NCBI RefSeq assembly: GCF_000025945.1
Contig: NC_006138.1
Coordinates: 2,190,001-2,222,000 of the forward strand
Direction of reading: 5' to 3'
From: Desulfotalea psychrophila LSv54
Lineage (GTDB): Bacteria > Desulfobacterota > Desulfobulbia > Desulfobulbales > Desulfocapsaceae
Length of the DNA stretch: 32,000 bases
Part shown: one piece after another, positions 14,555-31,193 of the stretch
How the letters are laid out: each line of letters opens with the position of its first letter
How positions within the stretch are numbered: the first letter of the stretch is position 1
Notes under the pieces: model-generated
The model's database searches: none
What the model was told of the DNA's origin: nothing
The model's input: only the letters and a program-made list of their open reading frames with translations
Translations under genes and position numbers: made by a program

Positions 14555-15415
14555 TTATGTCAATAATGCAGAATTGTCAATAAGACGAATACGTTCAGCA
14601 ATTCGTACAGCAAGTGCCATCACGTTTCCCGGTTGGACTGTTGGGCTAGGTTCAAGTGTCTGTTGGTCAACAATAGAAATATACTCTGGCTCATAACCGG
14701 CATCGATAATCACGCCTCTCGCCTTGGTTATAACCTCATCGCTCTCAATAGTCTTGCCAGCCGCACTCCTTGCCAGGACATAGTCCTTGGCTACTTCCAG
14801 AGCCTGAGAGAGGCAGAGGGCTTTGAGGCGTTGCTCTGCATTAAGATACTTATTTCGAGAGCTCATGGCCAAGCCATCGTCTTCGCGATAGATAGGGCAG
14901 GAGATAATCTGTAGATCGAAATCCAGATCAATAACCAGCTGTTTGATCATTGCTAATTGCTGAAAATCCTTTTCACCAAAGATAGCAAAATCAGGCTGAC
15001 AGAGATGGAAGAGCTTGGTGACAACGGTGGCAACCCCGTCGAAGTGTCCGGGTCTGCCGGCACCACAGAGATCAGCGGTAAGAGTGGTCACGCTAATATT
15101 TGTCTGAAAATTTGGTCCGTACATCTCCGTTGTTTCGGGGCAAAATAAAACATCGGTGCCAAGCTCTTCTGCCAGACGGGAATCTTTTTCATAGGGACGC
15201 GGGTAGGCATCCAGATCTTCACCTGGACCAAATTGGATGGGATTGACAAATAAACTGACAATAAGTCGATCTGCAATCTCCCTTCCCTTTTTTATCAGAG
15301 AAAGGTGGCCCTGATGAAAACAACCCATGGTGGGGACAAGAGCCACGGTAAGGCCTTGCTCCTGCCATTTTTTTACCTGCTCCCGTATCTCTTGTCTGCT
15401 ACTTATCTTTTTCAC
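14555..15415 (-). CDS. panC: pantoate--beta-alanine ligase
   Basis: 286-aa ORF with PTMGCFHQGHLSL (HxGH motif). Its GTG start overlaps the TGA of the upstream gene (GTGA). Confidence 0.92.
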   Translation of the reverse strand: MKKISSRQEIREQVKKWQEQGLTVALVPTMGCFHQGHLSLIKKGREIADRLIVSLFVNPIQFGPGEDLDAYPRPYEKDSRLAEELGTDVLFCPETTEMYGPNFQTNISVTTLTADLCGAGRPGHFDGVATVVTKLFHLCQPDFAIFGEKDFQQLAMIKQLVIDLDFDLQIISCPIYREDDGLAMSSRNKYLNAEQRLKALCLSQALEVAKDYVLARSAAGKTIESDEVITKARGVIIDAGYEPEYISIVDQQTLEPSPTVQPGNVMALAVRIAERIRLIDNSALLT

Positions 15416-16101
15416 TTTTTTGCCTGCAATCGAACAATTTTAGACTCAATATAGGATTTAGCCTGTGGACGACTGCTTTCCAGAGTTAAAAGATAGTCGT
15501 TATAGGTAAGTATTGCTTTTTCTATATCACCACGAGCTTCCCAGGTGCGAGCCATTCCAAGATAGGCCAGGTCATTATAACCGGAAAAAATCTTAAGATG
15601 CTGATACATTTCATAGGCCTCTACATACTTTTTCTGAGCCTCAAGAGATTCCGCCTGACCAAAAATGATTAATGGATGGAGGGGGTCAGTATCTGTTATC
15701 TTATCAAGAATAATGCTGTAACTTGAATAGGCCTTAGCGTATGCCTTTTCTGCCATATAGCCATGTGCTAACTCAATAGTTGCCCAAGTCGCCGAATTTG
15801 TTCCAGAATAATCTTCTACGACTTTCCTTAAATAGTTAGCTCGTTTATCAGCAGGTTCTTCGAGGGCAAGACCAAGGGCTGAAGACGCCTCTGCTGTATG
15901 TTTTTTACTATAGGAAGCATAGAGAGAAAAAGCCACAACCATAATAATAACAAAGGCCAAAGCTAACTGGATTGCACGGACATTTTTTCGGATAAAGGTA
16001 ATGGTCTTGGGGGGAAGGTTAAAATGTTCTAACACACCTTCGACGTCGCTCATTGTATCTTTTGCTACATACTTCTTTTCAAATGCACTGTGGTTTGCCA
16101 T
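15412..16101 (-). CDS. membrane-anchored TPR-like protein (YfgM-like)
   Basis: One TM helix (AIQLALAFVIIMVVAFSLYASY) followed by TPR-like helical repeats. I place the start at ATG 16101 (MANHSAF), which has GGGAGA 8 nt upstream. The ORF-track start at 16182 has no such signal. Confidence 0.55.
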   Translation of the reverse strand: MANHSAFEKKYVAKDTMSDVEGVLEHFNLPPKTITFIRKNVRAIQLALAFVIIMVVAFSLYASYSKKHTAEASSALGLALEEPADKRANYLRKVVEDYSGTNSATWATIELAHGYMAEKAYAKAYSSYSIILDKITDTDPLHPLIIFGQAESLEAQKKYVEAYEMYQHLKIFSGYNDLAYLGMARTWEARGDIEKAILTYNDYLLTLESSRPQAKSYIESKIVRLQAKK

Positions 16102-16326
16102 AAAAAAGTCTCCCAAATATCTTCGTTGACCGAAAACAATAAGGCGTAAAGGGTTAAAACTTGAGGAATAGGCCTCTAACAAATAGTGGGAAATGCAGTT
16201 CCTACTTTAACATTGCTCGGCAATATAATATATAGAGCGTAGCCTGTCTATGCGTAAAAGAGAGATATTTTCAAGAAAACAAAAGTAGGACTATCCTACT
16301 CAACAAACGACATATTCATATTAAAT

Positions 16327-17673
16327 ATGACATTTCTTAAGCAACCAATATACTCAGTATCAGAGATTACCGGATCAATCAAGACCCTTTTAGAAGGAAA
16401 ATTTCGTTTTATTACAATCAGAGGGGAAATATCTAATCTGAAAACACCCTATTCTGGTCATAGTTACTTCACCCTCAAGGATGATAAGGCCCAAATACGA
16501 GCTGTTATCTTTAAAAACCAGAAGCGCTATCTCCTTGATCCTCTACAGGACGGTAAACAGGTTATCTGCCATGGCAGAATATCTCTTTATGAACCACGAG
16601 GTGAATATCAGATCATCGTTGACAGCATTGAAGGTGACGGGGCAGGACAATTTCGTCAGGAGTTTGAAAAAATAAAAAAAAGGCTGGAAGAGAGGGGCTA
16701 TTTTGCAGGATCTAGCAAAAAGAACATTCCTCCCTATCCTGAAAAAATTGTTATTATTTCTTCACCTACAGGGGCTGCAATACAAGATTTTCTGAAGATA
16801 TATCAAATTCGGCAGAGCTTTACTCATTTGCAAATACTGCCCGTACGAGTTCAGGGCGAACAGGCGGCAGAGGAGATAGCTGAGGCAATCCGAATAGCCA
16901 ATGGCCTTGATAATATTGATCTCATTGTCCTTTGTCGGGGTGGTGGCTCGATTGAGGATCTATGGGCCTTCAACGAAATTGCCGTGGCTGAGGCCATCCA
17001 TGCATCTCAGTTGCCCGTAGTTACAGGGGTAGGTCATGAGGTTGATTTTACAATTGCTGATTTTTGTGCTGATGCCAGAGCTGCCACACCTACGGGGGCT
17101 GCTGAGATGCTCTTGGCTGACAGTGAGGAACTAGGACGAAAAATTATGGCCTATGGCAATCGGCAAAGGGCCATACTGGGTGGACAAATTTCTTTCTATC
17201 AGCAAAAGCTGAAACGGCTCACAAAATCCCTCAGTCTCATAGAGTATTCGGTTGAACAATCCTCTCACCATCTCGAACTTACCATCTCCTATTTCAAACA
17301 GGCAATGCTCTCATCTATGGAGAGGCGAGAGCAAAAACTGCAACAGGGCAGTGAGCGTCTTAAGGCGGAAGCGCCTCTACACAAGATCATTTTGCAAAAA
17401 CAGAGGGTAGAAAATTTAAAACACAGGCTGAAGAGACAGATAAGACATAGCCTTGATGAAAAAAAGGGGCAGTTTTCTCAACAGGCCGCCTTACTCAACA
17501 GCGTCAGCCCTCTGGCTACCCTTTCCCGAGGTTATGCTGTGGCAAGAATTATTTCCACGGGCAGAAAGGAAATCATCTCAAACAGTACTCAGGTAAAGGA
17601 GGGGCAGGAGATCAATGTCCTCCTTGGCCAAGGCTCCCTTGACTGTAAGATAGTTAAGAGCAACCAGGATTAA
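16327..17673 (+). CDS. xseA: exodeoxyribonuclease VII large subunit
   Basis: 448-aa ORF with an N-terminal OB-fold region (SVSEITGSIKTLLEG...SGHSYFTLKD), a catalytic core and a C-terminal coiled coil, as is typical of XseA. Confidence 0.9.
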   Translation: MTFLKQPIYSVSEITGSIKTLLEGKFRFITIRGEISNLKTPYSGHSYFTLKDDKAQIRAVIFKNQKRYLLDPLQDGKQVICHGRISLYEPRGEYQIIVDSIEGDGAGQFRQEFEKIKKRLEERGYFAGSSKKNIPPYPEKIVIISSPTGAAIQDFLKIYQIRQSFTHLQILPVRVQGEQAAEEIAEAIRIANGLDNIDLIVLCRGGGSIEDLWAFNEIAVAEAIHASQLPVVTGVGHEVDFTIADFCADARAATPTGAAEMLLADSEELGRKIMAYGNRQRAILGGQISFYQQKLKRLTKSLSLIEYSVEQSSHHLELTISYFKQAMLSSMERREQKLQQGSERLKAEAPLHKIILQKQRVENLKHRLKRQIRHSLDEKKGQFSQQAALLNSVSPLATLSRGYAVARIISTGRKEIISNSTQVKEGQEINVLLGQGSLDCKIVKSNQD

Positions 17674-20620
17674 GCAAAAGATCAGGGTTGTAACTCGTCC
17701 TGTTAAGGGGTAATTTAATCATAAAGGTAGTCCCCTCTCCTAGGACAGAGTGGGCGTCGAGTAAACCTGCATGTTGGTTTCTAACAATAAAGGTAGCTAT
17801 AGACAGTCCTAGACCCGTACCAAGCCCCTTGGGTTTGGTGCTGTAGAAGGGTTCAAAGATACGCTTTGCTGTTATGAGATCCATTCCCGGTCCATTATCT
17901 TTTATATTGATACTTATCCAACGAATATTCTGGGATATAGATATCTTGATCCGTTTTTGTAAGCGAGTGTCCTGATCTGTGCCAAGAGCATAGAGGGCGT
18001 TAACAAGAATATTAAAGAGTACCTGTTGTATATTTACCCGGGAGCAGGATATCATTGGCAGCTTATCTGCGAAGTCTCTCTCTATAGTTATTGACTCTAG
18101 GTCAATATTTTTTTGAATATCATGATCACTTTTGACGAGATCAATGGCAGATTCAGTGAGAGCGACAATATCTTCAAAGCTATATTGAGTATCCCCTTGG
18201 TGCCCAACTGAGAGCATATTTTTTACAAGTCCAATTGCCCGATATGTATACTCATCAATTGAATTTAAAAGGGTATTTACCCCCCTTTTTTCTAAATAGT
18301 GATTTAAGGCCTGCAAATCCAGACCAGACTCCTCCGCAGTGTTCTGATTTGCCGCAATATTTTCGAAAAAGCTCTTGCGAATTAATTGCATATTACGACT
18401 CAAACCAAGCAGGGGTTTGTTCATCTCATAGGCCATTCCAGCGGCTATTCCTGAAACAGAGAGCATCTTTTGGGATTGAGCCATAATGTCATCGATCTTC
18501 ACCTTTTCCGTTACATCATCAAGACGAATGACCGCACCCATAATCTTATCAGAGCTTAAAGGAAAGATAGTAATGGTCTCATAATAAATTGTGCCACTAC
18601 TGTTTCTTGGAATATTCGCCTTCTCAAAGGGGACTCTGGTATTGGTAACACCAATAATATTGGCCTTATATGCTTTTAGCCGGGGAAAAATTTCTTCAAA
18701 ATCTTTTTTTTCTATACTCTCAAGAGGTTGTCCAACGTATTTCTCTGTGGCTATATTACAGTAGGTGATTACGCATCTCTTATTCACCACCACAAAAAGA
18801 GATGGCTGAGAATCATAAATACTGTGTAGCAAAACCCGTAGTCTTTCCATCTCCAGTTGGTCATTATGCTTTGAGTAAACATGCCATAGACCGTTGAGTA
18901 CCAGAGATATTTGTTTACTATCCTGCTCATCGTACTTGCCATTTTTATTACACAGGCCAGCTATTATTGTCGGCGATGTACCATCAAGATGGGGGACATT
19001 AAGATAGTTCTTAATCACGACCCTGGCAGGATAAATCTCGGTATTGTTTTTTATGCTAGCTGTATTGTCGAAAAAGGTTCGTCCTAGCCGGGCAACCCTG
19101 GCGGGTAGGGAGTGACCGGAAAAACTAAAAACCTTTTCTATCCCTTCTTGTTTAGCAGAAAAGCCCTCTGTGGCTAACAGAGAGAGCTGTTTTTTTTCAT
19201 CATCGTAGAGAGCAATATAACCGTATTCACTATCGAGCATTGCAACCATTTTTTGCAGGGAAAACTGAGCAAGACCGACAATTCCCTCGGGAGCAATACT
19301 CCATAGTTGCAGCAGGGTCTCAAGGCGAAGTTCGTTTGATTGAAGAATTTTTTCCGTATTATTTCTATCTGCAATTATCTTATTTGCATAGAGACCTAAG
19401 GTTTCAAACTCTCTATAGGTAAAGGAGTCTCGCTTAAAGGCGAGATTCTTTTTATTTACCTGAACAAAAAGATCTGTGAATATATTAAATTCATTTCTTA
19501 TCTTGATTGAATAATGGCGGGCAATAAAAAAGACCAAAATAATGGTTAAAAACACGGTGAGACAATAAAAGACAATGCCATGAATAAGGGCATCTTTATG
19601 GCGATCCTCTGCTATGTTCAATGCCTCTTGCATGGCAGAGAGTTCAACACTGGCAACAATGGTCCAATTCCATGGTTGATAATTGGCTACATAACTCAGT
19701 CGTTGTACAGGATTACCAAAGTGATCAGGCATTTTATAGATCAGGAAGCCACTCCTGAGGCCCGTAGCACCAATTTTTTGTAGCTCCAGGCCATAGGAAT
19801 TGCCATCAATATCCTTTAAGCTACTGATAGACCGACCTGTGCGTAATTTATCAAAATCAATAACAGTACGGCCTTCCCCATCAAAACAGAGAAAATACCC
19901 CCCGTCACCAAAACGGCTACCCTCCATAATAGCAAGGGTCTTTTTTTGACCATGTCTGGCGAATTGATCAAGATAAACTCCTGTGCCAATAATCCAGTTA
20001 TAGGGTGAAAATTTTTTTATGAAAGAGATCTTAGAGTACTTGCCATCGCTGCTATTAGGCTTTTCTGCCAAATAGGAAAAAAATCCTGCGCCTTGCCCGT
20101 TGGTAATCTCCTTAAAGGCAGATAAGAGCGTCTTCTCAACGGGCATGTTTTCCATTTCCGGGCTACCAGCCTGAAGAACAAAGGTATTTGCTCTGGTATC
20201 GGTGATAAAGAAATATCCCCTGCCCATGTCCCAACGCATGGGTCTCAGAGCTTCACTAATCATCTGCTGAAGCTTTTTTTTAGGTATGGTTTCATTGTAC
20301 ATATTGTAAAAATGGGAGGTCAGGGTATAGGCTTCCTGGACCTGCTCCTGTACTTCTTTTTTCACCTCTTGCTCAACGAGAGACTCTTGCCTTTGAATAG
20401 ACGCCAAAATACCCTCAGTGGTATTTTGTAAGGCATGTCTGCTCTGGCGCAGATACTCCTCCTCGGTAAAGGCGAGTACGCCGGCATATTTTTTACACTC
20501 ATCAATAACCCAATAGGTTCCGGTGAAAAGATAAAGAACAAAAATAACAGTAGCGCTCGCCCAGAAGGGAGCTATTGAAAGAGAAGCCTTTACATCTCGC
20601 CTAGCCTTATTCAGTAACAT
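17654..20620 (-). CDS. multi-sensor histidine-kinase-like protein with a degenerate H-box; domain order TM, double Cache-like periplasmic region, TM, GAF, PAS, DHp, HATPase
   Basis: 988-aa ORF with two TM helices flanking a periplasmic region of about 330 aa that has Cache-like GYFF/GYFL motifs. A GAF-like and a PAS-like segment follow. The catalytic boxes are present: N (LFNILVNALYAL), G1 (IKDNGPGM), F (IFEPFYSTK) and G2 (GTGLGLSIA). The H-box reads AAGMAYEMNKPL, with Tyr where His is expected. Confidence 0.85.
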   Translation of the reverse strand: MLLNKARRDVKASLSIAPFWASATVIFVLYLFTGTYWVIDECKKYAGVLAFTEEEYLRQSRHALQNTTEGILASIQRQESLVEQEVKKEVQEQVQEAYTLTSHFYNMYNETIPKKKLQQMISEALRPMRWDMGRGYFFITDTRANTFVLQAGSPEMENMPVEKTLLSAFKEITNGQGAGFFSYLAEKPNSSDGKYSKISFIKKFSPYNWIIGTGVYLDQFARHGQKKTLAIMEGSRFGDGGYFLCFDGEGRTVIDFDKLRTGRSISSLKDIDGNSYGLELQKIGATGLRSGFLIYKMPDHFGNPVQRLSYVANYQPWNWTIVASVELSAMQEALNIAEDRHKDALIHGIVFYCLTVFLTIILVFFIARHYSIKIRNEFNIFTDLFVQVNKKNLAFKRDSFTYREFETLGLYANKIIADRNNTEKILQSNELRLETLLQLWSIAPEGIVGLAQFSLQKMVAMLDSEYGYIALYDDEKKQLSLLATEGFSAKQEGIEKVFSFSGHSLPARVARLGRTFFDNTASIKNNTEIYPARVVIKNYLNVPHLDGTSPTIIAGLCNKNGKYDEQDSKQISLVLNGLWHVYSKHNDQLEMERLRVLLHSIYDSQPSLFVVVNKRCVITYCNIATEKYVGQPLESIEKKDFEEIFPRLKAYKANIIGVTNTRVPFEKANIPRNSSGTIYYETITIFPLSSDKIMGAVIRLDDVTEKVKIDDIMAQSQKMLSVSGIAAGMAYEMNKPLLGLSRNMQLIRKSFFENIAANQNTAEESGLDLQALNHYLEKRGVNTLLNSIDEYTYRAIGLVKNMLSVGHQGDTQYSFEDIVALTESAIDLVKSDHDIQKNIDLESITIERDFADKLPMISCSRVNIQQVLFNILVNALYALGTDQDTRLQKRIKISISQNIRWISINIKDNGPGMDLITAKRIFEPFYSTKPKGLGTGLGLSIATFIVRNQHAGLLDAHSVLGEGTTFMIKLPLNRTSYNPDLLLNPGCS

Positions 20621-20621
20621 C

Positions 20622-21755
20622 CTATTGCACCTTCTGGAAATCTGGGAAGAGAGAGACGAGGTAAAGAGAATCTCTCCCTAGGGGAATCCTTTCAGCTAAG
20701 CGACAAATTTTATCATCAATCTTAATGTTTATATTCTTTTGGGCAGTCGCAAGAAATCTTTCTCTGGTAAGTCTTCCAGGTACAGCTCTTGCTATCTTCG
20801 TAAAGAGACGGCCTGCAATATAACCTTCCAATGACAAAAAACTTGGGCCCGTGTTTTCATCGATTAAAAGAAGAGCTTTTCTATAATTTTTTACCAGAAG
20901 GCTTTCAGCCCAGGGGAAGGGGACCACGGCAGAAACAAAAACGTTGGTTCCCAGTTTTCCCAAAGATTTCTGTAAGTCTCCAGGACTGGCAAAGGAAATA
21001 TTGCAATAAATACGATTTTTTCTGTTTTTGATCTTATCAAGCTTAATATATTCTGCACAGGGCGCATAAGATCCCACCAGTATAATAGCTTCAGGTTCCT
21101 GCTCATCTATAGTCTTTAATGCTCCTAAGACAGAGAGGGTATTTCTTTCATACTTCCCTTGCGCTACCAATTTGAGCGATTTTTGCCGTAATACATCTTG
21201 AACTGTTTGCAAATTACTCTTGCCAAAGCTATCGTTTTGGTAAAAACAGGCTATGCGTTGGACGCCCTTTTTTTCTGTAAGGAACTTAACAATATTTTCA
21301 ATTTCCAGGCGATAACTCGCCCGAGCATGCAGTATTTGTGGGTGTTTTATATCTCGTAGAGACACTGCTCCGGTATATGGAAATAACAGTGGTATTTGTC
21401 TGGCAGAGAGGAGCGGCAAAATTTCTTCTGTTGTCGGAGTACCCACATTTCCTATAAGCAAAAAAGCGTTATCGTTATCAATAAGTTTTTGTACATTAAA
21501 CAGTGTCCGATGAGGCTCATAACCATCATCCCGGCTCTTTAACAGTATATCCCGTCCATGCACACCACCCTCTGCGTTTATCTCGGCAAAGGCAGCGAGC
21601 AGCCCCAGGCGGAAGTTAAGACCGAGTCGCGCCGATTTTCCCGTAAGGGGCGCAGATTGGCCTAGGATTATTGGACTCTTAGCCTGAGAAATACCAGGTA
21701 AGGGGATGCAGAAGAGGAGTAGAGCAGACAGGTATATAATGATTTTGTTAGTCAT
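20622..21755 (-). CDS. periplasmic substrate-binding protein, Leu/Ile/Val-binding (type 1 PBP) family
   Basis: 377-aa ORF with a signal peptide (LSALLLFCIPLPGISQA). PIILGQSAPLTGKSARLG is typical of the LIV-type PBP N-terminus. Its stop lies 1 nt before the kinase ATG. Confidence 0.8.
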   Translation of the reverse strand: MTNKIIIYLSALLLFCIPLPGISQAKSPIILGQSAPLTGKSARLGLNFRLGLLAAFAEINAEGGVHGRDILLKSRDDGYEPHRTLFNVQKLIDNDNAFLLIGNVGTPTTEEILPLLSARQIPLLFPYTGAVSLRDIKHPQILHARASYRLEIENIVKFLTEKKGVQRIACFYQNDSFGKSNLQTVQDVLRQKSLKLVAQGKYERNTLSVLGALKTIDEQEPEAIILVGSYAPCAEYIKLDKIKNRKNRIYCNISFASPGDLQKSLGKLGTNVFVSAVVPFPWAESLLVKNYRKALLLIDENTGPSFLSLEGYIAGRLFTKIARAVPGRLTRERFLATAQKNINIKIDDKICRLAERIPLGRDSLYLVSLFPDFQKVQ

Positions 21756-23528: not shown

Positions 23529-26090
23529 TTAAAGTCCCAGAAGGTGGTAAATGGCATCCATGTCTACAGATTCGCGTACGGTTTTAGCAAGAGTTTCAAA
23601 GGCCCCGTCAAGGTTATAGGGTGCAAGTACCCTTCCCTCTCTGCTAAGGCCTTTTTTCTGGCGTAGGTCATCAATGAACAGTCGTCTGAAATCATCTGCA
23701 TCAAACATACCATGGAGATAGGCCCCCCAGACGGGCAGATTCTCTGCCTTGTGACCACAGTAGGACCCGTCATTAAAGAGAAAGAGAGGGGCGCTTTTAC
23801 CAACAGAAATGCCATGATGAATTTCATAGCCGTGGACGGCTGTTTGTGAGGATATATGATGACCGGTTTTACGTAATAATTTCTTGTCCTCTCCTATCTC
23901 GGTGCCAATATCAAGAATGCCAAGCCCTTCATCGCTGAGGCGGGCAGACTCTACCCCATGGGGGTCTGAAATTTTTCTCCCCAGCATTTGATAGCCGCCG
24001 CATATACCAACTACGGTGCCACCATCTGTGGCAAACTCCTTAATATATTCAACAAAGCCTCCCTCCTGTAACCAGCGCATATCCCCAAGCACATTTTTTG
24101 AGCCGGGAATAATGATTGCATCGCTGTTCTCAAGCTCAGTAACTCTCGTAACGATCCTGATGTGGACATCTGGTTCGGTTAAAAAGGGCTCTATATCTGT
24201 GAAATTAGAGAGATGCGGCAGAGAAAGAACAGAGATTACCACATGGTCGCCAATAGGTGGCAGACTGTCAAGGGCCCCGGATTTAAAGGAGACAGAGTCT
24301 TCTTCTGGAATACCGAGCTGATGAATATAGGGGACAACCCCAAGAACCTTTCTGCCCGTATGCTGAAGGAGATAATCGTGGGCTGAAGAGAGAAGGCGGG
24401 CATCGCCCCGAAAACGGTTTACCAGAAAACCGGCAACTAGGTCACGTTCCCACTGGGAAAGTACCTCCATGATACCCACAAAGGAGGCATATACTCCACC
24501 CCGGTCAATGTCCCCTACCAGAAGAACAGGAGATTGAGCATGTTGGGCCATACGCATATTGACAATGTCATGTTGCTTCAGGTTCACCTCTCCCGGCGAG
24601 CCAGCACCCTCAAGGATGATGGTATCATATTCCGCCGCCAGTTCATCGTAGGATTCCTGTACCTTATGCCAGGCCTGACCCTTATAGCGATGGTACTGAC
24701 CTACGCTCATATTGCCCACAGGCCTTCCCTGAACGATCACCTGACTGCCCGTATCAGAATTTGGCTTTAAGAGAATAGGATTCATTCGCCAATGGGGATC
24801 AATACAGGCTGCTTGGGCCTGTACCACCTGGGCTCGGCCCATTTCCCTGCCGTCGCGGGTGACAAAGGAGTTTAGTGACATATTCTGCGCCTTAAATGGG
24901 GCTACCTTAATTCCATCCTGGACAAGGATACGGCAGAGGGCGGCGGTGAGTACCGATTTCCCAGCATTGGAACAGGTGCCTTGGAGCATTAGAGCTGGTG
25001 TGGGTCTCTTTTCTCTCTTTTTTTTGCTCGGTACTGTTGCCAGCGAGGTACGCAGGGCTTGGAAGAAGAGATGGTTTTCCTCATGGGTGCGGACGGCAAC
25101 ACGAAAATAGCTCCTGTCCAGTCCACTAAAATTCTCACATGGACGAATGGCAAAGCCGGCCTGAAGCAGTCTTTTCCTGAGAGGCTCAACCGCCCCACCA
25201 TCTCGCAGACGGCAGAGATGGTAGTTGACCCGGGAGGGAAAAACCTCCAGGGCATCTAGTGAACTCAGCTCCTGAAAACAATCCCTGCGGGCAGCCTCCG
25301 CATAGGCGAGGCTCTGTTGCCTATAGGTCTCATCGGCAAAAAGGCGTTTACCCACGGCTTGGGCCAGAGTGTTGACCGTCCAGGGCGGTAGGGCATTATG
25401 CAGGGCCACTTTTAATTCTTCAGAACAGCTACAATATCCCAGACGCAGGCCGGGTAGGGCATAAAACTTTGTCATTGAGTTGAGGGTAATGACATTTTCA
25501 AATCGGCCGGCAAAGCTTGGCTCGTCTGCGATAAAATCCAAAAATGCCTCGTCCAGACAGAACCATACCTCTGGCATGGATTTGATAATATCTGCCAACT
25601 GTTCTGTATCGGGGAGGAGGCCGGTTGGATTGTTAGGCCTGGCGATAAGGGCAAGATCACCCGGTCGTAGAATTTTTTTTAAGCGCTCAAGAGAGAGTTG
25701 AAAACCGTTTTCCGGGGAGAGCTCCACGGGGACAATCTCCTGCCCCGTCTGACTCGCCGCATGATAGTAATCGATATAGGAGGGTACTGGAATAACGATT
25801 CTCTTACTGGGGATGATGCGTAGAAGGGCATAAAGCAACTCTGCTGTGCCGTTTCCCGCCACCACCCTCTTCTCGGAAATGCCATGGTGCCCGGCAATGG
25901 CCTGGCAGAACTCCAGACAATCGGGATCGGGATAATGAATGAGCGTTTCCAACTCATTACTGATCACCGGTCGTAACCATTCAGGGGGCCCCAGGGGGTT
26001 TATATTGGCACTGAAATCGATGATCTTTTGTTCAGCACCTTCGGCCTTTATTTTTCTGAGATTACCGCCATGTTCTTTTCTTTTAATCAT
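23529..26090 (-). CDS. fusion protein: threonine-phosphate decarboxylase (CobD-type aminotransferase fold) joined to cobyric acid synthase (CobQ/CbiP)
   Basis: 853-aa ORF. The N-terminal roughly 355 aa carry HGGN...IDFSANINPLGPP (CobD type). A linker PSKKKREKRPTP follows. The rest carries ALMLQGTCSNAGKS (CobQ N-terminal P-loop) and a C-terminal glutamine amidotransferase region (GICGGYQMLG). Confidence 0.85.
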   Translation of the reverse strand: MIKRKEHGGNLRKIKAEGAEQKIIDFSANINPLGPPEWLRPVISNELETLIHYPDPDCLEFCQAIAGHHGISEKRVVAGNGTAELLYALLRIIPSKRIVIPVPSYIDYYHAASQTGQEIVPVELSPENGFQLSLERLKKILRPGDLALIARPNNPTGLLPDTEQLADIIKSMPEVWFCLDEAFLDFIADEPSFAGRFENVITLNSMTKFYALPGLRLGYCSCSEELKVALHNALPPWTVNTLAQAVGKRLFADETYRQQSLAYAEAARRDCFQELSSLDALEVFPSRVNYHLCRLRDGGAVEPLRKRLLQAGFAIRPCENFSGLDRSYFRVAVRTHEENHLFFQALRTSLATVPSKKKREKRPTPALMLQGTCSNAGKSVLTAALCRILVQDGIKVAPFKAQNMSLNSFVTRDGREMGRAQVVQAQAACIDPHWRMNPILLKPNSDTGSQVIVQGRPVGNMSVGQYHRYKGQAWHKVQESYDELAAEYDTIILEGAGSPGEVNLKQHDIVNMRMAQHAQSPVLLVGDIDRGGVYASFVGIMEVLSQWERDLVAGFLVNRFRGDARLLSSAHDYLLQHTGRKVLGVVPYIHQLGIPEEDSVSFKSGALDSLPPIGDHVVISVLSLPHLSNFTDIEPFLTEPDVHIRIVTRVTELENSDAIIIPGSKNVLGDMRWLQEGGFVEYIKEFATDGGTVVGICGGYQMLGRKISDPHGVESARLSDEGLGILDIGTEIGEDKKLLRKTGHHISSQTAVHGYEIHHGISVGKSAPLFLFNDGSYCGHKAENLPVWGAYLHGMFDADDFRRLFIDDLRQKKGLSREGRVLAPYNLDGAFETLAKTVRESVDMDAIYHLLGL

Positions 26091-29437: not shown

Positions 29438-31193
29438 TTATGCTGTTTCAGCTAAAAGTTGGTTGAGGGCATTTTGGGCAAAGTCAAGGCTTGCATCAAG
29501 GCTTAAAGCTACGGTGAAAAATTCCACAGCTTCAACTTTATGACCGAGACGCATATAGTTTACCCCGACATTGGCGTAATCAATTCCTGAAGCAGGATTA
29601 AGCTCAATAGCCCGCTTAAAGGAGGAGATTGCCGTCTCATATTGTTCAAGCTTGAAGAAGCATACACCGAGGGTGTTATGCAGATCGGGTCGTTCCTCGT
29701 CAAAGAGCAGACCCTCCTGCAGGGCCTCTATGGCCTCTGCATAACGACCAAGGTCACGAAGACAGCAGCCCTTATAAGAATAAATATAGGGGACATCCTC
29801 TGCCTCTGGCTTCAGGGTCAGGGCCTTATCAAAATGGATAAGGGCTGCTTCGGCGTTGCCGGCTGCGACAAAATTTTTCCCCCGATAAAATTCAAGATAG
29901 TAGGCATCGGGTAAGAGGACACTCATCTCGCCTAATTTTACCTCCTGCTCTGCAGGATCTTCGATGCGTTCAACGAGGAGTTTTGCACAGAAGAGACCGG
30001 CATTACAGATCATTGAGCGTTCACGAAAATGGGCGCCGGGAATAATGGTATAGAGGGCAGGGATTTGCAGCTGGGGATGACAGACATCTATCATATAGAC
30101 ATCAAAACCATTGTTCTTCAGACTATCGAGGCAATTTTTCACTTCGGTATAGATATTATCATCTGAAATATCTACCATCTCGTCAATAGTCACCTGATCT
30201 GCTGTCTCGGTAAGATAGGTAACCTCGCTCATGGACAGAGGTTTAGGTAAACCGGAGGCTATATAATTGGAACCGGTATTGAAATCTCCTGCTAACTGAG
30301 CTACCTCGGTGATGGCTCGAATAATGGCCTTCTCCGGATTTGGAGTAGTACCTGCCGTATAGACAATTTCACTCTTTTCAGGGAAGGTTGAGCGATCAAT
30401 GGCCAGGGCACCAACGGAGGCAATTCCTGTCTCCAGGCTGAAATCATTGAGATATACTTCAATGTTATTTTTGGCAAACTTTTCAAGAAGCTCCACGGCT
30501 ACGGGATCTTTAATCGTCTCTACATCGATCTTTGCCGTTGGTAGTTTATCACGGTTAATTCGAGAGCAGACATCGCGCTCGACAATCTCACAGAGACCTT
30601 GAAGGGCGGCCTCTTCTTGGGTATTACCGGCTGAAGGGCCGTTGAACTCATTAATTGCAAAGAACCAGGAAAAGGGGATAAGAACCTCTCCTTCCTCACC
30701 TGTCATTTTGGTGGCCCAGGTCCACTGCATGGGAATACCGGCAAGAAGTTTTTCTAACTGAGCCACGGTGGTATGGGTATCGTGCACGGATTTAAGTAGA
30801 TGTTCCATGTCTAAGACGGGATAACCTGCTGCCCGCATCTCCTCATAGTCACCAAGCAAAAAATTATCTGCGTTTTTGCTAAATGAGAAAAAAGAGAATC
30901 TCTCGGCAAGTTCCATACAGGCAGATGCTTCGGATTGTATGGGCGAGGCACCCTTGCCCATCTGCTTCTTTGTCCCCGTATATTGAGAGGCATCATCGCC
31001 ACAGACGCTAAAATATACAGGAATATCTAAGCGTCCATTATCAATACGACGAACTTCACTGACTATATTTATATCGAGATTTTTCACCTTGGAATAAAAA
31101 CGTTCAAGGGTTTGTTCCCGGTGTAATTGCCTTGTCTTGATCGGTGGTAAATGTCTTATAGCAATCTTTTAATACTACTGGCTTTTTTTCCAT
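29438..31193 (-). CDS. YcaO-domain protein with a C-terminal TPR domain; the reading frame is interrupted near the 5' end by an apparent +1 frameshift at 31117-31119
   Basis: YcaO signatures are present: MGKGASPIQSEASACMELAERFSFF and SAGNTQEEAALQGLCEIVERDV (the E..ER and ERD ATP/Mg motifs). About four TPRs follow in the last roughly 170 aa. The uninterrupted ORF starts at GTG 31087. A 29-codon ORF from ATG 31193 in the adjacent frame supplies the missing conserved N-terminus. Confidence 0.75.

What the first reader, a model, noticed from the sequence alone, without database searches (positions are those of the whole stretch)
18422..18436. Phospho-acceptor His replaced by Tyr in an otherwise intact histidine kinase (DivL-like H-box)
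The DHp helix reads GIAAGMAYEMNKPLLGL. Kinases of this class normally read ...AHE(I/L)NNPL.... The Glu and the N-x-PL are preserved, but the His position is Tyr (codon TAT on the minus strand, 18428-18430, about residue 731). No other His occurs in that helix. The N, G1, F and G2 ATP-binding boxes all look intact. The best-known precedent for a His-to-Tyr H-box is Caulobacter DivL, which acts as a pseudokinase and regulatory scaffold. No response regulator or receiver domain lies in or next to this gene. The protein may therefore signal by a non-canonical route such as Tyr phosphorylation, scaffolding or control of another kinase. A single change at plus-strand position 18430 (A to G) would restore CAT (His), so sequencing error must be excluded.
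Basis: partly seen in the sequence, partly recalled or inferred. Interest (0 to 1): 0.65.

Follow-up and report, generated by a model that had tools for sequence, protein, structure and literature searches.

The report
Histidine kinase that lost its histidine
A membrane sensor kinase, probably from Desulfotalea psychrophila, has tyrosine where its phosphate-accepting histidine should be and a worn-down motif around it but an intact ATP-binding domain, so it is most likely a naturally evolved "pseudokinase", a known but rarely documented kind of bacterial signalling protein.

Summary
Codon TAT at 18430-18428 (minus strand) is Tyr731 of a 988-aa dCache-GAF-PAS-DHp-CA protein. It sits in the column that holds His in 152 of 152 other family representatives and in 63 of 63 readable metagenome H-boxes.

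It is very unlikely to be a sequencing error.
- Six other near-invariant H-box residues are also changed, including the phosphatase Asn (H+4, now Lys).
- Reverting Tyr to His in silico recovers only 17.6 of the 50.7 HisKA bits scored by an orthologue.
- A second positional orthologue (a Desulfotalea MAG) also has Tyr. A third keeps His in an even more degraded box.

The ATP-binding domain is not an outlier, and the 2,967-nt ORF is intact. The six closest positional orthologues (42-47% identity) carry His; five have the canonical AHEINNPL and one reads AHEINKPL.

The protein is therefore not "otherwise intact". It is a lineage-specific His-less pseudo-histidine kinase that has most likely lost both kinase and phosphatase chemistry at the DHp. 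The rest of the protein appears to be maintained by selection.

The resemblance to DivL is convergent only. The nearest relatives are ZraS/AtoS/NtrB-type kinases, and DivL ranks about 40th by fold at 14-16% identity. Tyr at this site is also reported in a Streptomyces PsmA pseudokinase.

I class it as a new member of a known kind, of moderate interest.

The parts
17654..20620 (-). Whole gene: a 988-aa membrane sensor with the order TM - dCache_2 - TM - GAF - PAS - DHp - HATPase_c, a His-less histidine-kinase homologue.
   Evidence: ORF. Pfam hits: dCache_2 2.4e-59, GAF_2, PAS_4, HATPase_c 1.5e-19, and no HisKA hit. There are no internal stops.
18428..18430 (-). Codon TAT = Tyr731, at the phospho-acceptor position, where relatives have His (CAT).
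   Evidence: The column is 100% His in 152 other family representatives.
18395..18472 (-). Degenerate H-box, residues 717-742. The window reads QKMLSVSGIAAGMAYEMNKPLLGLSR; the family reads EKMLSVGGLAAGMAHEINNPLAGI.Q.
   Evidence: The window deviates at 7 of 21 columns that are at least 90% conserved (family mean 0.52). In silico, Y731H gives only 17.6 bits to HisKA, repairing all 7 gives 24.2 bits, and an orthologue scores 50.7 bits.
18416..18418 (-). Codon AAA = Lys735 at H+4, the position of the HisKA phosphatase residue (the T/N of the E/DxxT/N motif).
   Evidence: The column is 98% Asn in the family. The motif definition comes from PMC11502775.
18365..18511 (-). DHp helix alpha-1 (residues 704-752). 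It contains no His.
   Evidence: AlphaFold2 model with mean pLDDT 87.5; helix at model residues 19-67, which are protein residues 704-752.
18287..18355 (-). Family-specific two-helix insert in the DHp hairpin (residues 756-778).
   Evidence: Model helices at 71-80 and 84-93. The insert is aligned in the family members shown.
18203..18280 (-). DHp helix alpha-2 (residues 781-806). The conserved '...LSFSR' end reads '...LSVGH' here.
   Evidence: F805V, R807H.
17702..18037 (-). CA (HATPase_c) domain with intact N, G1, F and G2 boxes.
   Evidence: Pfam HATPase_c covers residues 862-973. The window deviates at 3 of 36 conserved columns (S927, A942, T943), none of them an ATP-box residue checked, and 20 of 152 family members deviate as much or more.
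18500..18814 (-). PAS domain directly upstream of the DHp. It ends in the family signature 'IRLDDVTE'.
   Evidence: Pfam PAS_4 covers residues 603-707. The signature was used to retrieve 66 metagenome loci.
18884..19273 (-). Cytoplasmic GAF domain.
   Evidence: Pfam GAF_2 covers residues 450-579.
19643..20467 (-). Periplasmic double-Cache sensor domain, flanked by hydrophobic segments at about residues 17-39 and 345-367.
   Evidence: Pfam dCache_2 covers residues 52-326. The hydrophobic segments were read directly from the sequence.
20622..21755 (-). Upstream co-transcribed gene for a LivK-type periplasmic binding protein. Its stop codon is 1 nt from the kinase start. It is the probable ligand-binding partner of the dCache domain.
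   Evidence: Pfam Peripla_BP_6 2.1e-40. The gene sits immediately upstream of the kinase, with a gap or overlap of a few nt to about 70 nt, in every positional orthologue whose upstream region is held; L082 starts too close to the kinase to show it.

Best explanation
The gene encodes a lineage-specific pseudo-histidine kinase. It descends from a ZraS/AtoS/NtrB-type (HisKA) sensor kinase that works with a co-transcribed periplasmic binding protein.

In a sublineage of Desulfotalea-like bacteria, selection on the phosphotransfer site was released. Eight family-invariant positions in and around the H-box drifted. The phosphatase Asn became Lys. In two of the three affected lineages the acceptor His (CAT) became Tyr (TAT) by a single transition.

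Shown:
- The acceptor His is absent.
- The H-box is degenerate.
- The ATP-binding residues checked, the DHp hairpin fold, the sensor domains and the long ORF are all retained.

Inferred:
- The protein can no longer autophosphorylate on His, and probably cannot dephosphorylate a regulator.
- It still senses its ligand (through the binding protein, dCache, GAF and PAS), dimerises and binds ATP.
- It passes the signal on by protein-protein contact. It could modulate or heterodimerise with another kinase, or bind a response regulator, as the pseudo-kinases DivL, RocA and PsmA do.
- Tyr is probably a tolerated, mutationally easy replacement, not a new phospho-acceptor.
For: Position:
- Tyr731 is in the His column of every comparison.

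Not an isolated change:
- The window deviates at 7 of 21 conserved H-box columns against a family mean of 0.52. Among the 152 other representatives only P0051, itself one of the degenerate positional orthologues, deviates at 7 or more.
- HisKA does not match the wild-type DHp even at E<=10. The Y731H revertant scores 17.6 bits, the seven-site repair 24.2 bits, and an orthologue 50.7 bits, against a cut-off of 26.9.

Same trend in positional orthologues:
- P0047/L075 (a Desulfotalea sp. MAG, same gene order) reads AYEINKP.
- P0051/L082 reads AHELGKPQ.
- All three deviate at the same 8 invariant positions, mostly to different residues. The overlap between the window and P0047 is 10 positions against 4 expected, P=2.5e-4.

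Relaxation centred on the DHp:
- Identity to the outgroup P0046 is 38% in the DHp against 50-57% for the His-bearing orthologues. In the CA it is 46% against 50-57%.
- In maximum-likelihood quartets the window branch is about 2.4 times the L001 branch for the kinase core and 1.9 times for the binding protein. It is about 1.0 times for the housekeeping neighbours.

Still under selection:
- The CA deviates at only 3 of 36 conserved columns, and all ATP-box residues checked are kept.
- The 2,967-nt ORF is open, although only 0.35% of simulated neutral copies stay open at 5% nucleotide divergence.
- The binding-protein gene stays immediately upstream of the kinase.
- The model is a normal DHp-CA fold with pLDDT 87.5, and ZraS is the best fold match at 4e-18.

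Precedents:
- DivL lacks kinase and phosphatase activity and acts as a sensor of DivK~P (PMC4211667).
- PsmA lacks the His (E, D, Q, V or Y among species) and the D/ExxT/N motif (PMC12963549).
Against: - No biochemistry exists for this protein, so the output route and the partner are unknown.
- The canonical His-bearing orthologues are also orphans, so there is no known pathway to which the pseudokinase could be attached.
- The whole binding-protein and kinase module evolves about twice as fast in this lineage. That also fits a gene of declining importance.
- Only one genome carries this exact sequence (cluster of 1), so the TAT codon itself has not been independently re-read.
- The phylogeny does not settle whether degeneration happened once or several times. 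The kinase and binding-protein trees conflict with the housekeeping flanks.
- DivL binds ATP poorly, whereas this CA looks fully competent. That leaves open what the ATP site is kept for.
Confidence: 0.55

Rival explanations
1. The gene is decaying. The kinase lost its function (for example its partner regulator) in this lineage. The H-box changes, including His to Tyr, are early neutral decay of a protein that no longer matters and has not yet picked up a stop codon.
For: - The change is lineage-specific, and the six closest positional orthologues keep His, five of them in the fully canonical box.
- The binding protein and all kinase domains evolve 1.6-2.4 times faster than in the L001 lineage.
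- The other two degenerate orthologues are the fastest-evolving members, at 30-34% identity to everything.
- No partner gene lies in the window.
Against: - The ORF is open over 2,967 nt in all three degenerate lineages.
- In neutral simulations only 0.35% of copies stay open at 5% nucleotide divergence and none at 10%. Yet 7 of 21 invariant H-box residues have already changed.
- The ATP-box residues checked are retained in all three lineages, except that Thr935 in the G2 box is Asn in P0047 and Arg in P0051. The window's CA is not an outlier.
- The close spacing of the binding-protein and kinase genes is kept.
- The acceleration is far short of neutral.
Confidence: 0.2
2. Tyr731 is a real phospho-acceptor. 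The intact CA domain phosphorylates Tyr731, as I recall was originally reported for DivL in vitro, and the phosphotyrosine signals onward.
For: - Tyr is at the exact acceptor position, with the catalytic Glu732 next to it.
- The CA domain is fully conserved, which asks for an explanation.
- The same residue, Tyr, appears in two divergent positional orthologues.
Against: - The surrounding invariant residues that position the acceptor are lost, and to different residues in each lineage. That is the signature of released constraint, not of a re-optimised site.
- A third degenerate orthologue keeps His.
- CAT to TAT is the easiest single transition.
- In PsmA pseudokinases the same position is E, D, Q, V or Y (PMC12963549).
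- DivL itself shows no autokinase activity in later work (PMC4211667).
Confidence: 0.07
3. The codon is a sequencing or assembly error, or a mutation acquired in the laboratory strain, and the wild organism has CAT.
For: - A single base separates TAT from CAT.
- Only one genome holds this sequence.
- An orthologue with an even more degenerate box still has His, so His with a degenerate box is a possible true state.
Against: - Six further substitutions at columns that are at least 94% conserved surround the codon, and they cannot be one error.
- Reverting the Tyr restores only 17.6 bits of HisKA signal.
- The same TAT is found in another Desulfotalea-lineage orthologue, in two assemblies, L075 and L076, which may derive from the same reads.
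Confidence: 0.03
4. The protein is still a working kinase or phosphatase through another residue. Either an alternative His (for example His807 at the end of alpha-2, or His775 in the insert) accepts phosphate, or the protein is a dedicated phosphatase.
For: - His807 replaces a 91%-conserved Arg, and P0051 also has His in that column.
- From my own knowledge, His-less HisKA mutants can retain phosphatase activity in other systems.
Against: - No alternative His is shared between the two Tyr-bearing orthologues. P0047 has Lys at 807 and its other His residues fall in different columns.
- In the model, residue 807 lies past the end of alpha-2, about five residues above the level of 731 by my count of helix residues.
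- The phosphatase residue at H+4 is Lys, not Asn or Thr (motif from PMC11502775).
Confidence: 0.05

Closest known systems
ZraS / AtoS / NtrB-type HisKA sensor kinases (closest by sequence and fold)
   Same: - The best NCBIfam hit is AtoS, at 138 bits.
- The best solved relative is ZraS, by sequence (2.5e-17) and by fold (4e-18).
- The H-box family consensus AHEINNPL is the same, and the N, G1, F and G2 boxes and the DHp-CA fold match.
   Different: - The acceptor His is Tyr and the phosphatase Asn is Lys. Five further near-invariant H-box residues are changed, and HisKA gives no profile hit.
- The hit is far below the AtoS equivalog cut-off (138 against 646 bits).
- The DHp hairpin carries a roughly 25-aa two-helix insert that is shared by this subfamily.
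DivL of Caulobacter crescentus (pseudo-histidine kinase with Tyr550)
   Same: Tyr is at the phospho-acceptor position of a PAS-DHp-CA protein, and the likely outcome is loss of His autophosphorylation. DivL shows that such a protein can be an essential signalling hub without kinase or phosphatase activity (PMC4211667).
   Different: - It is not homologous beyond the superfamily. DivL 4q20 is Foldseek rank 40-48 at 14-16% identity. It is absent from the sequence hits at E<=1e-5, and from the hits for the DHp alone at E<=10.
- DivL is reported to bind ATP weakly. Here the CA motifs are canonical.
- From my own knowledge, Tyr is conserved across DivL orthologues. Here 2 of 11 positional orthologues have it.
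- The sensor modules differ (binding protein plus dCache plus GAF), and the phylum differs (Desulfobacterota against Alphaproteobacteria).
PsmA of Streptomyces (hybrid-HK-like pseudokinase)
   Same: The acceptor His is lost, the residue at that site varies among orthologues (E, D, Q, V, Y) and the D/ExxT/N phosphatase motif is lost. PsmA lacks autokinase activity in vitro and acts through protein-protein interaction (PMC12963549). The evolutionary pattern is the same as here: the His site is free to vary inside one orthologue group.
   Different: It is an unrelated architecture, a cytoplasmic hybrid HK that binds DivIVA. The loss is family-wide in Streptomycetaceae, whereas here most orthologues are still canonical kinases.
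LuxP-LuxQ and TorT-TorS type sensing (a periplasmic binding protein reporting to a kinase's periplasmic domain)
   Same: A binding-protein gene lies immediately upstream of a kinase with a periplasmic double-PAS/Cache domain. The pair is conserved in the positional orthologues whose upstream region is held, and also with a different transmitter in Desulfopila and Desulfolithobacter. The comparison with LuxPQ and TorTS rests on my own knowledge.
   Different: The binding protein here is LivK-type (Peripla_BP_6). No interaction or ligand has been tested, and the transmitter lacks its His.

Membership tests
Canonical HisKA-family sensor histidine kinase | Phospho-acceptor His in the H-box of DHp helix alpha-1 | tested here: not met
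   Tyr731 occupies the column that is 100% His in 152 other family representatives. It also aligns to the acceptor His of ZraS, LvrB and CckA.
Canonical HisKA-family sensor histidine kinase | E/DxxT/N motif after the His (catalytic Glu at +1, phosphatase Thr or Asn at +4) | tested here: not met
   The window reads Y-E-M-N-K. Glu732 is kept and position +4 is Lys, in a column that is 98% Asn. The motif is as defined in PMC11502775.
Canonical HisKA-family sensor histidine kinase | Match to the Pfam HisKA (PF00512) profile at or above its gathering score | tested here: not met
   There is no hit at E<=0.1 for the whole protein or at E<=10 for the DHp alone. The orthologue P0002 scores 50.7 bits against a cut-off of 26.9.
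Canonical HisKA-family sensor histidine kinase | CA (HATPase_c) domain with N, G1, F and G2 boxes | tested here: met
   HATPase_c scores 1.5e-19. N870, N874, D908, G910, G912, F922, F925, G934, G936 and G938 are all present.
Canonical HisKA-family sensor histidine kinase | DHp helical hairpin followed by an alpha/beta CA fold | tested here: met
   The AlphaFold2 model has pLDDT 87.5. The top Foldseek hits are ZraS, HK853, YycG and CckA DHp-CA structures.
Canonical HisKA-family sensor histidine kinase | Cognate response regulator | not testable with these tools
   No receiver domain occurs in the scanned ORFs of the 32-kb window or next to any positional orthologue. The rest of the genome could not be searched.
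DivL family (alphaproteobacterial cell-cycle pseudokinase) | Tyr in place of the acceptor His | tested here: met
   Tyr731. This feature alone is not diagnostic, because S. scabies PsmA also has Tyr at this site.
DivL family (alphaproteobacterial cell-cycle pseudokinase) | Specific sequence or structural kinship with DivL | tested here: not met
   DivL 4q20 is Foldseek rank 40 and 48 at 14-16% identity, behind about 39 chains of ordinary kinases. There is no DivL hit by sequence.
DivL family (alphaproteobacterial cell-cycle pseudokinase) | Tyr conserved across orthologues | tested here: not met
   Tyr is present in 2 of 11 positional orthologues (the window and L075). The other nine have His.
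DivL family (alphaproteobacterial cell-cycle pseudokinase) | Works with DivK~P and CckA | not testable with these tools
   Only a 32-kb window is available, and no DivK or CckA homologue is present in it.
Pseudo-histidine kinases in general (DivL, PsmA, RocA and similar) | HK-fold protein that lacks the acceptor His and the phosphatase motif | tested here: met
Pseudo-histidine kinases in general (DivL, PsmA, RocA and similar) | Maintained by selection, not decaying | tested here: inconclusive
   For selection: the ORF is open, the CA motifs are kept, and the binding-protein gene stays immediately upstream. Against: the whole module evolves about twice as fast as in the L001 lineage. dN/dS cannot be measured at this divergence.
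Pseudo-histidine kinases in general (DivL, PsmA, RocA and similar) | No autokinase activity; signals by protein-protein interaction | not testable with these tools
   This requires biochemistry and interaction screens.

The most novel reading that the evidence does not exclude
Tyr731 is a functional phospho-acceptor. A Desulfotalea sublineage would then have independently converted a ZraS/NtrB-type histidine kinase into an HK-fold tyrosine autokinase. The fully conserved ATP site would be kept to phosphorylate Tyr. The same Tyr in a second orthologue that is only 34% identical would reflect selection, not mutational ease.
Probability: 0.07. Interest if true: 0.8.

Novelty: new member of a known kind. 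Interest (0 to 1): 0.4.

Why it matters
Pseudo-histidine kinases are known, but only a handful have been studied (DivL, RocA, PsmA). Most were recognised as family-wide states.

Here a single group of positional orthologues contains three states side by side:
- canonical kinases;
- a member with a degraded box that still has His;
- two members with Tyr at the acceptor site.

This is a natural series showing how a kinase becomes a pseudokinase. It also shows which residues are released together with the His: eight invariant positions in the DHp, the DHp-CA linker and the helix after the G2 box. Those positions are candidates for residues that serve only phosphotransfer.

The case also warns annotators. 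This protein would be called a sensor histidine kinase on its HATPase_c hit, yet it cannot work as one.

Tried and rejected
- **GTDB species-representative scan**. It returned only dCache proteins at 24-27% identity and no orthologue, and the window's own genome was not returned. Orthologues had to be found by other routes: the word-index search, the exhaustive representative search, the binding-protein neighbours and the metagenome scan.
- **Neighbour-joining trees**. These used uncorrected BLOSUM distances and put L075 and P0051 near the outgroups. I treat that as possibly long-branch attraction, because my maximum-likelihood quartets (BLOSUM62-derived rate matrix, four gamma categories) give a different answer.
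- **Parsimony quartets**. They are weak and conflicting.
- **One or two origins of Tyr.** I could not settle this. The kinase and the binding protein favour the window grouping with L075 (RELL 0.97-0.999 and 0.78). The housekeeping genes xseA, tpr and degT favour the window grouping with L001 (RELL 0.89).
- **Relocated acceptor His** (His775, His807, His833). Rejected, because none is shared with the other Tyr-bearing orthologue.
- **Horizontal transfer of the module.** There is no strong compositional signal: GC is 0.41-0.42 against a window mean of 0.456, similar to the neighbouring tpr and panD genes.
- **dN/dS.** Not attempted, because synonymous sites are saturated at 47% or lower protein identity.
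- **Literature tools.** They timed out and worked from then on. No paper mentioning this particular gene was found.
- **Organism identity.** Desulfotalea psychrophila LSv54 is inferred from the 3,523,383-bp contig length and my memory of that genome's size. It is supported by the 'Desulfotalea sp.' label on the syntenic MAG but was not verified directly.

Full report
**1. What is there**

The finding lies in a 988-aa ORF at 17654..20620 on the minus strand. Pfam gives the following domains:
- dCache_2, residues 52-326;
- GAF_2, residues 450-579;
- PAS_4, residues 603-707;
- HATPase_c, residues 862-973;
- no HisKA hit.

Two hydrophobic segments, at about residues 17-39 and 345-367, flank the Cache domain, so that domain should be periplasmic. 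This is read directly from the sequence.

The gene just upstream (20622..21755, minus strand) encodes a LivK-type periplasmic binding protein. Its stop codon lies 1 nt from the kinase start.

The protein sits on a contig of 3,523,383 bp. From memory, that is the size of the Desulfotalea psychrophila LSv54 chromosome. A syntenic relative is labelled 'Desulfotalea sp.'.

No ORF of at least 100 aa scanned in the 32-kb window carries a receiver domain. The neighbours are housekeeping genes: the cob genes, ndk, xseA, panC, panD and the lpx genes.

**2. The observation**

The minus strand reads GCC TAT GAG ATG AAC AAA CCC, and TAT occupies 18430-18428, which is residue 731.

Tyr731 falls in the acceptor-His column of every comparison made:
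- nine homologues;
- the solved kinases ZraS, LvrB and CckA;
- 63 of 63 readable H-boxes in 66 metagenome loci retrieved with the PAS-DHp junction signature IRLDDVTE;
- 152 of 152 other family representatives from an exhaustive HMMER search.

The AlphaFold2 model of residues 686-988 (pLDDT 87.5) has these elements:
- alpha-1 at residues 704-752, with Tyr731 in mid-helix;
- a two-helix insert at residues 756-778;
- alpha-2 at residues 781-806;
- a normal CA domain.

Alpha-1 contains no His. The ATP boxes are intact.

**3. It is not an isolated substitution**

Across 152 representatives of the PAS-DHp-CA family, 74 columns are at least 90% conserved.

| Region | Conserved columns | Window | P0047 | P0051 | 152 other representatives |
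|---|---|---|---|---|---|
| H-box region (711-745) | 21 | 7 | 8 | 11 | mean 0.52; max 3 apart from P0051 |
| CA (860-975) | 36 | 3 | 6 | 6 | mean 1.0; 20 of 152 have 3 or more |

- The window's seven H-box deviations are E717Q, G723S, L725I, H731Y, I733M, N735K and Q742R.
- Its three CA deviations are S927, A942 and T943. None is an ATP-box residue checked.
- H-box against CA for the window gives Fisher P=0.028.
- N735 is the H+4 residue of the E/DxxT/N motif, which carries the phosphatase function of HisKA kinases (PMC11502775). Here it is Lys.

The Pfam HisKA scores for the DHp alone make the same point (cut-off 26.9 bits).

| DHp sequence | HisKA score |
|---|---|
| Window, wild type | no match at E<=10 |
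| Window, Y731H in silico | 17.6 bits |
| Window, all seven positions repaired | 24.2 bits |
| Orthologue P0002 | 50.7 bits |

A one-base error cannot explain this pattern.

**4. Orthologues**

I found ten positional orthologues with conserved neighbouring gene order. The longest loci show cobD, ndk, the binding protein, the kinase, convergent xseA, the TPR gene, panD/degT, lpxC and lpxK; shorter contigs hold only part of this.

| Locus (protein) | H-box | Identity to window |
|---|---|---|
| L001, L002, L009, L078, L079 | AHEINNPL | 43-47% |
| L077 | AHEINKPL | 42% |
| L083 (P0046), L085 (P0049) | AHEINNPL | 33-34% |
| L075/L076 (P0047, Desulfotalea sp. MAG GCA_047518385.1) | AYEINKPI | 34% |
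| L082 (P0051) | AHELGKPQ | 30% |

None has an adjacent response regulator.

The three degenerate proteins (the window, P0047 and P0051) all deviate at the same eight family-invariant positions: 723, 725, 735, 742, 750, 807, 833 and 943. They share Ile725 and Lys735 but differ at most of the others. The overlap between the window and P0047 is 10 positions against 4.0 expected, P=2.5e-4.

This is what release of a functionally coupled set of residues looks like. It is not what re-optimisation around a new acceptor looks like. All seven orthologues whose DNA I read use CAT for His and TAT for Tyr, so each change is one transition.

**5. Rates and history**

Identity to the outgroup P0046, by domain:

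| Domain | Window | His-bearing orthologues |
|---|---|---|
| DHp | 38% | 50-57% |
| CA | 46% | 50-57% |
| dCache | 29% | 35-38% |

I ran four-taxon maximum-likelihood fits with a BLOSUM62-derived rate matrix and four gamma categories. The window and L001 branch lengths (substitutions per site) are as follows.

| Data set | Window branch | L001 branch |
|---|---|---|
| Kinase core | 0.44 | 0.18 |
| Sensor region | 0.47 | 0.30 |
| Binding protein | 0.47 | 0.25 |
| xseA + tpr + degT | 0.25 | 0.24-0.27 |

The whole sensor module is therefore accelerated in this lineage, and the kinase core most of all.

Whether the degeneration happened once is unresolved.
- Maximum-likelihood quartets of the kinase group the window with L075 against a His orthologue plus outgroup (RELL 0.97-0.999). 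They also group L075 with P0051 (0.995). This makes the three degenerate proteins one clade.
- The binding protein agrees, with RELL 0.78.
- The housekeeping flanks prefer the window with L001 (RELL 0.89).
- Neighbour-joining and parsimony give mixed answers.

Either the box was released once and His was later replaced in two of three lineages, or the same path was taken repeatedly.

**6. Is the protein still used?**

All three degenerate genes are open over about 2.9 kb. In neutral simulations of this coding sequence, only 0.35% of copies stay open at 5% nucleotide divergence and none at 10%. The H-box alone has changed at a third of its invariant residues.

The ATP-box residues checked are kept in all three lineages, except that Thr935 in the G2 box is Asn in P0047 and Arg in P0051. 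I infer continued purifying selection on the sensor, the dimerisation helices and the nucleotide site, but not on phosphotransfer.

**7. Mechanism**

Best reading, at about 0.55 confidence: this is a pseudo-histidine kinase. It still senses (binding protein, dCache, GAF, PAS), dimerises and binds ATP. It cannot autophosphorylate on His and has probably lost phosphatase activity too. It signals by contact with another kinase or a regulator.

Rivals:
- slow decay of an unimportant gene (0.2);
- Tyr as a true acceptor (0.07);
- another His as acceptor, or a phosphatase-only role (0.05);
- sequencing error or laboratory mutation (0.03).

**8. Comparison with what is known**

By sequence and fold, the protein belongs with ZraS, AtoS and NtrB-type kinases.

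DivL is only a convergent analogue.
- Its fold match ranks 40th at 14-16% identity.
- There is no sequence hit to DivL.
- DivL binds ATP weakly and lacks both kinase and phosphatase activities (PMC4211667).

The abstract of that paper says DivL 'uniquely' has Tyr at the His site. That statement is now outdated. PsmA pseudokinases of Streptomyces carry E, D, Q, V or Y at that position and also lack the D/ExxT/N motif (PMC12963549). The PsmA pattern, in which the His site is free to vary within an orthologue group, is the closest evolutionary parallel.

**9. Verdict**

This is a real feature. It is wrong on 'otherwise intact' and on kinship with DivL.

It is a new member of a known kind. Its added value is that one set of positional orthologues shows the canonical, the degraded-with-His and the Tyr states side by side.

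Noticed in passing
L080:10001-14477 and L081:10001-14306: In Desulfopila inferna and a Desulfolithobacter, a 44%-identical homologue of the window's binding protein is paired with a dCache_2-GAF-HisKA_3 kinase and a NarL/GerE-type regulator. The trio sits next to a cluster of ferredoxin-like genes, a TorD-like chaperone, a 932-aa protein without a Pfam hit, and a cytochrome b. The same sensor cassette (binding protein plus dCache-GAF) is therefore wired to a different transmitter there.
   Followed up: partly
window 18287-18355 (-): The aligned members of this PAS-DHp-CA subfamily carry a roughly 25-residue insert, predicted in the window protein to form two short helices, in the DHp hairpin between alpha-1 and alpha-2 (residues 756-778). 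ZraS and HK853 are shorter than the model and align only partly to it in the fold search, which fits an insert.
   Followed up: partly
window residues 723, 725, 735, 742, 750, 807, 833, 943 of the ORF 17654-20620 (-): Eight family-invariant positions deviate in all three degenerate orthologues (the window, P0047 and P0051), mostly to different residues. They lie in alpha-1, at the end of alpha-2, in the DHp-CA linker and in the helix after the G2 box. They may mark residues needed only for phosphotransfer.
   Followed up: partly
L077:1685-4636: This positional orthologue (GCA_002754915.1) keeps the acceptor His but has Lys at the phosphatase position (AHEINKPL). This predicts a kinase-positive, phosphatase-negative variant.
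   Followed up: no
L082:165-3035: The orthologue P0051 keeps His but deviates at 11 of 21 conserved H-box columns (GIAHELGKPQ). It is only 29-32% identical to every other orthologue, although its xseA is as conserved as the others'.
   Followed up: partly
window 23529-26090 (-): An 853-aa fusion combines an Aminotran_1_2 domain (probably a CobD-like threonine-phosphate decarboxylase) with CobQ (CbiA/AAA_26 plus GATase_3). The fusion is conserved in the syntenic loci L001 and L075.
   Followed up: no
window 29438-31087 (-): A YcaO domain protein carries a C-terminal TPR region, at the end of the cobalamin gene cluster.
   Followed up: no
window 17654-17673: The kinase gene and the convergent xseA gene overlap by 20 nt at their 3' ends. 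In orthologues the overlap is 4 nt or there is a short gap, so the window protein has a slightly longer C-terminal tail.
   Followed up: no
window 15412-16182 (-): The TPR_21-like ORF is listed from a TTG start as 256 aa, whereas orthologues are 229-233 aa. The true start is probably further downstream.
   Followed up: no
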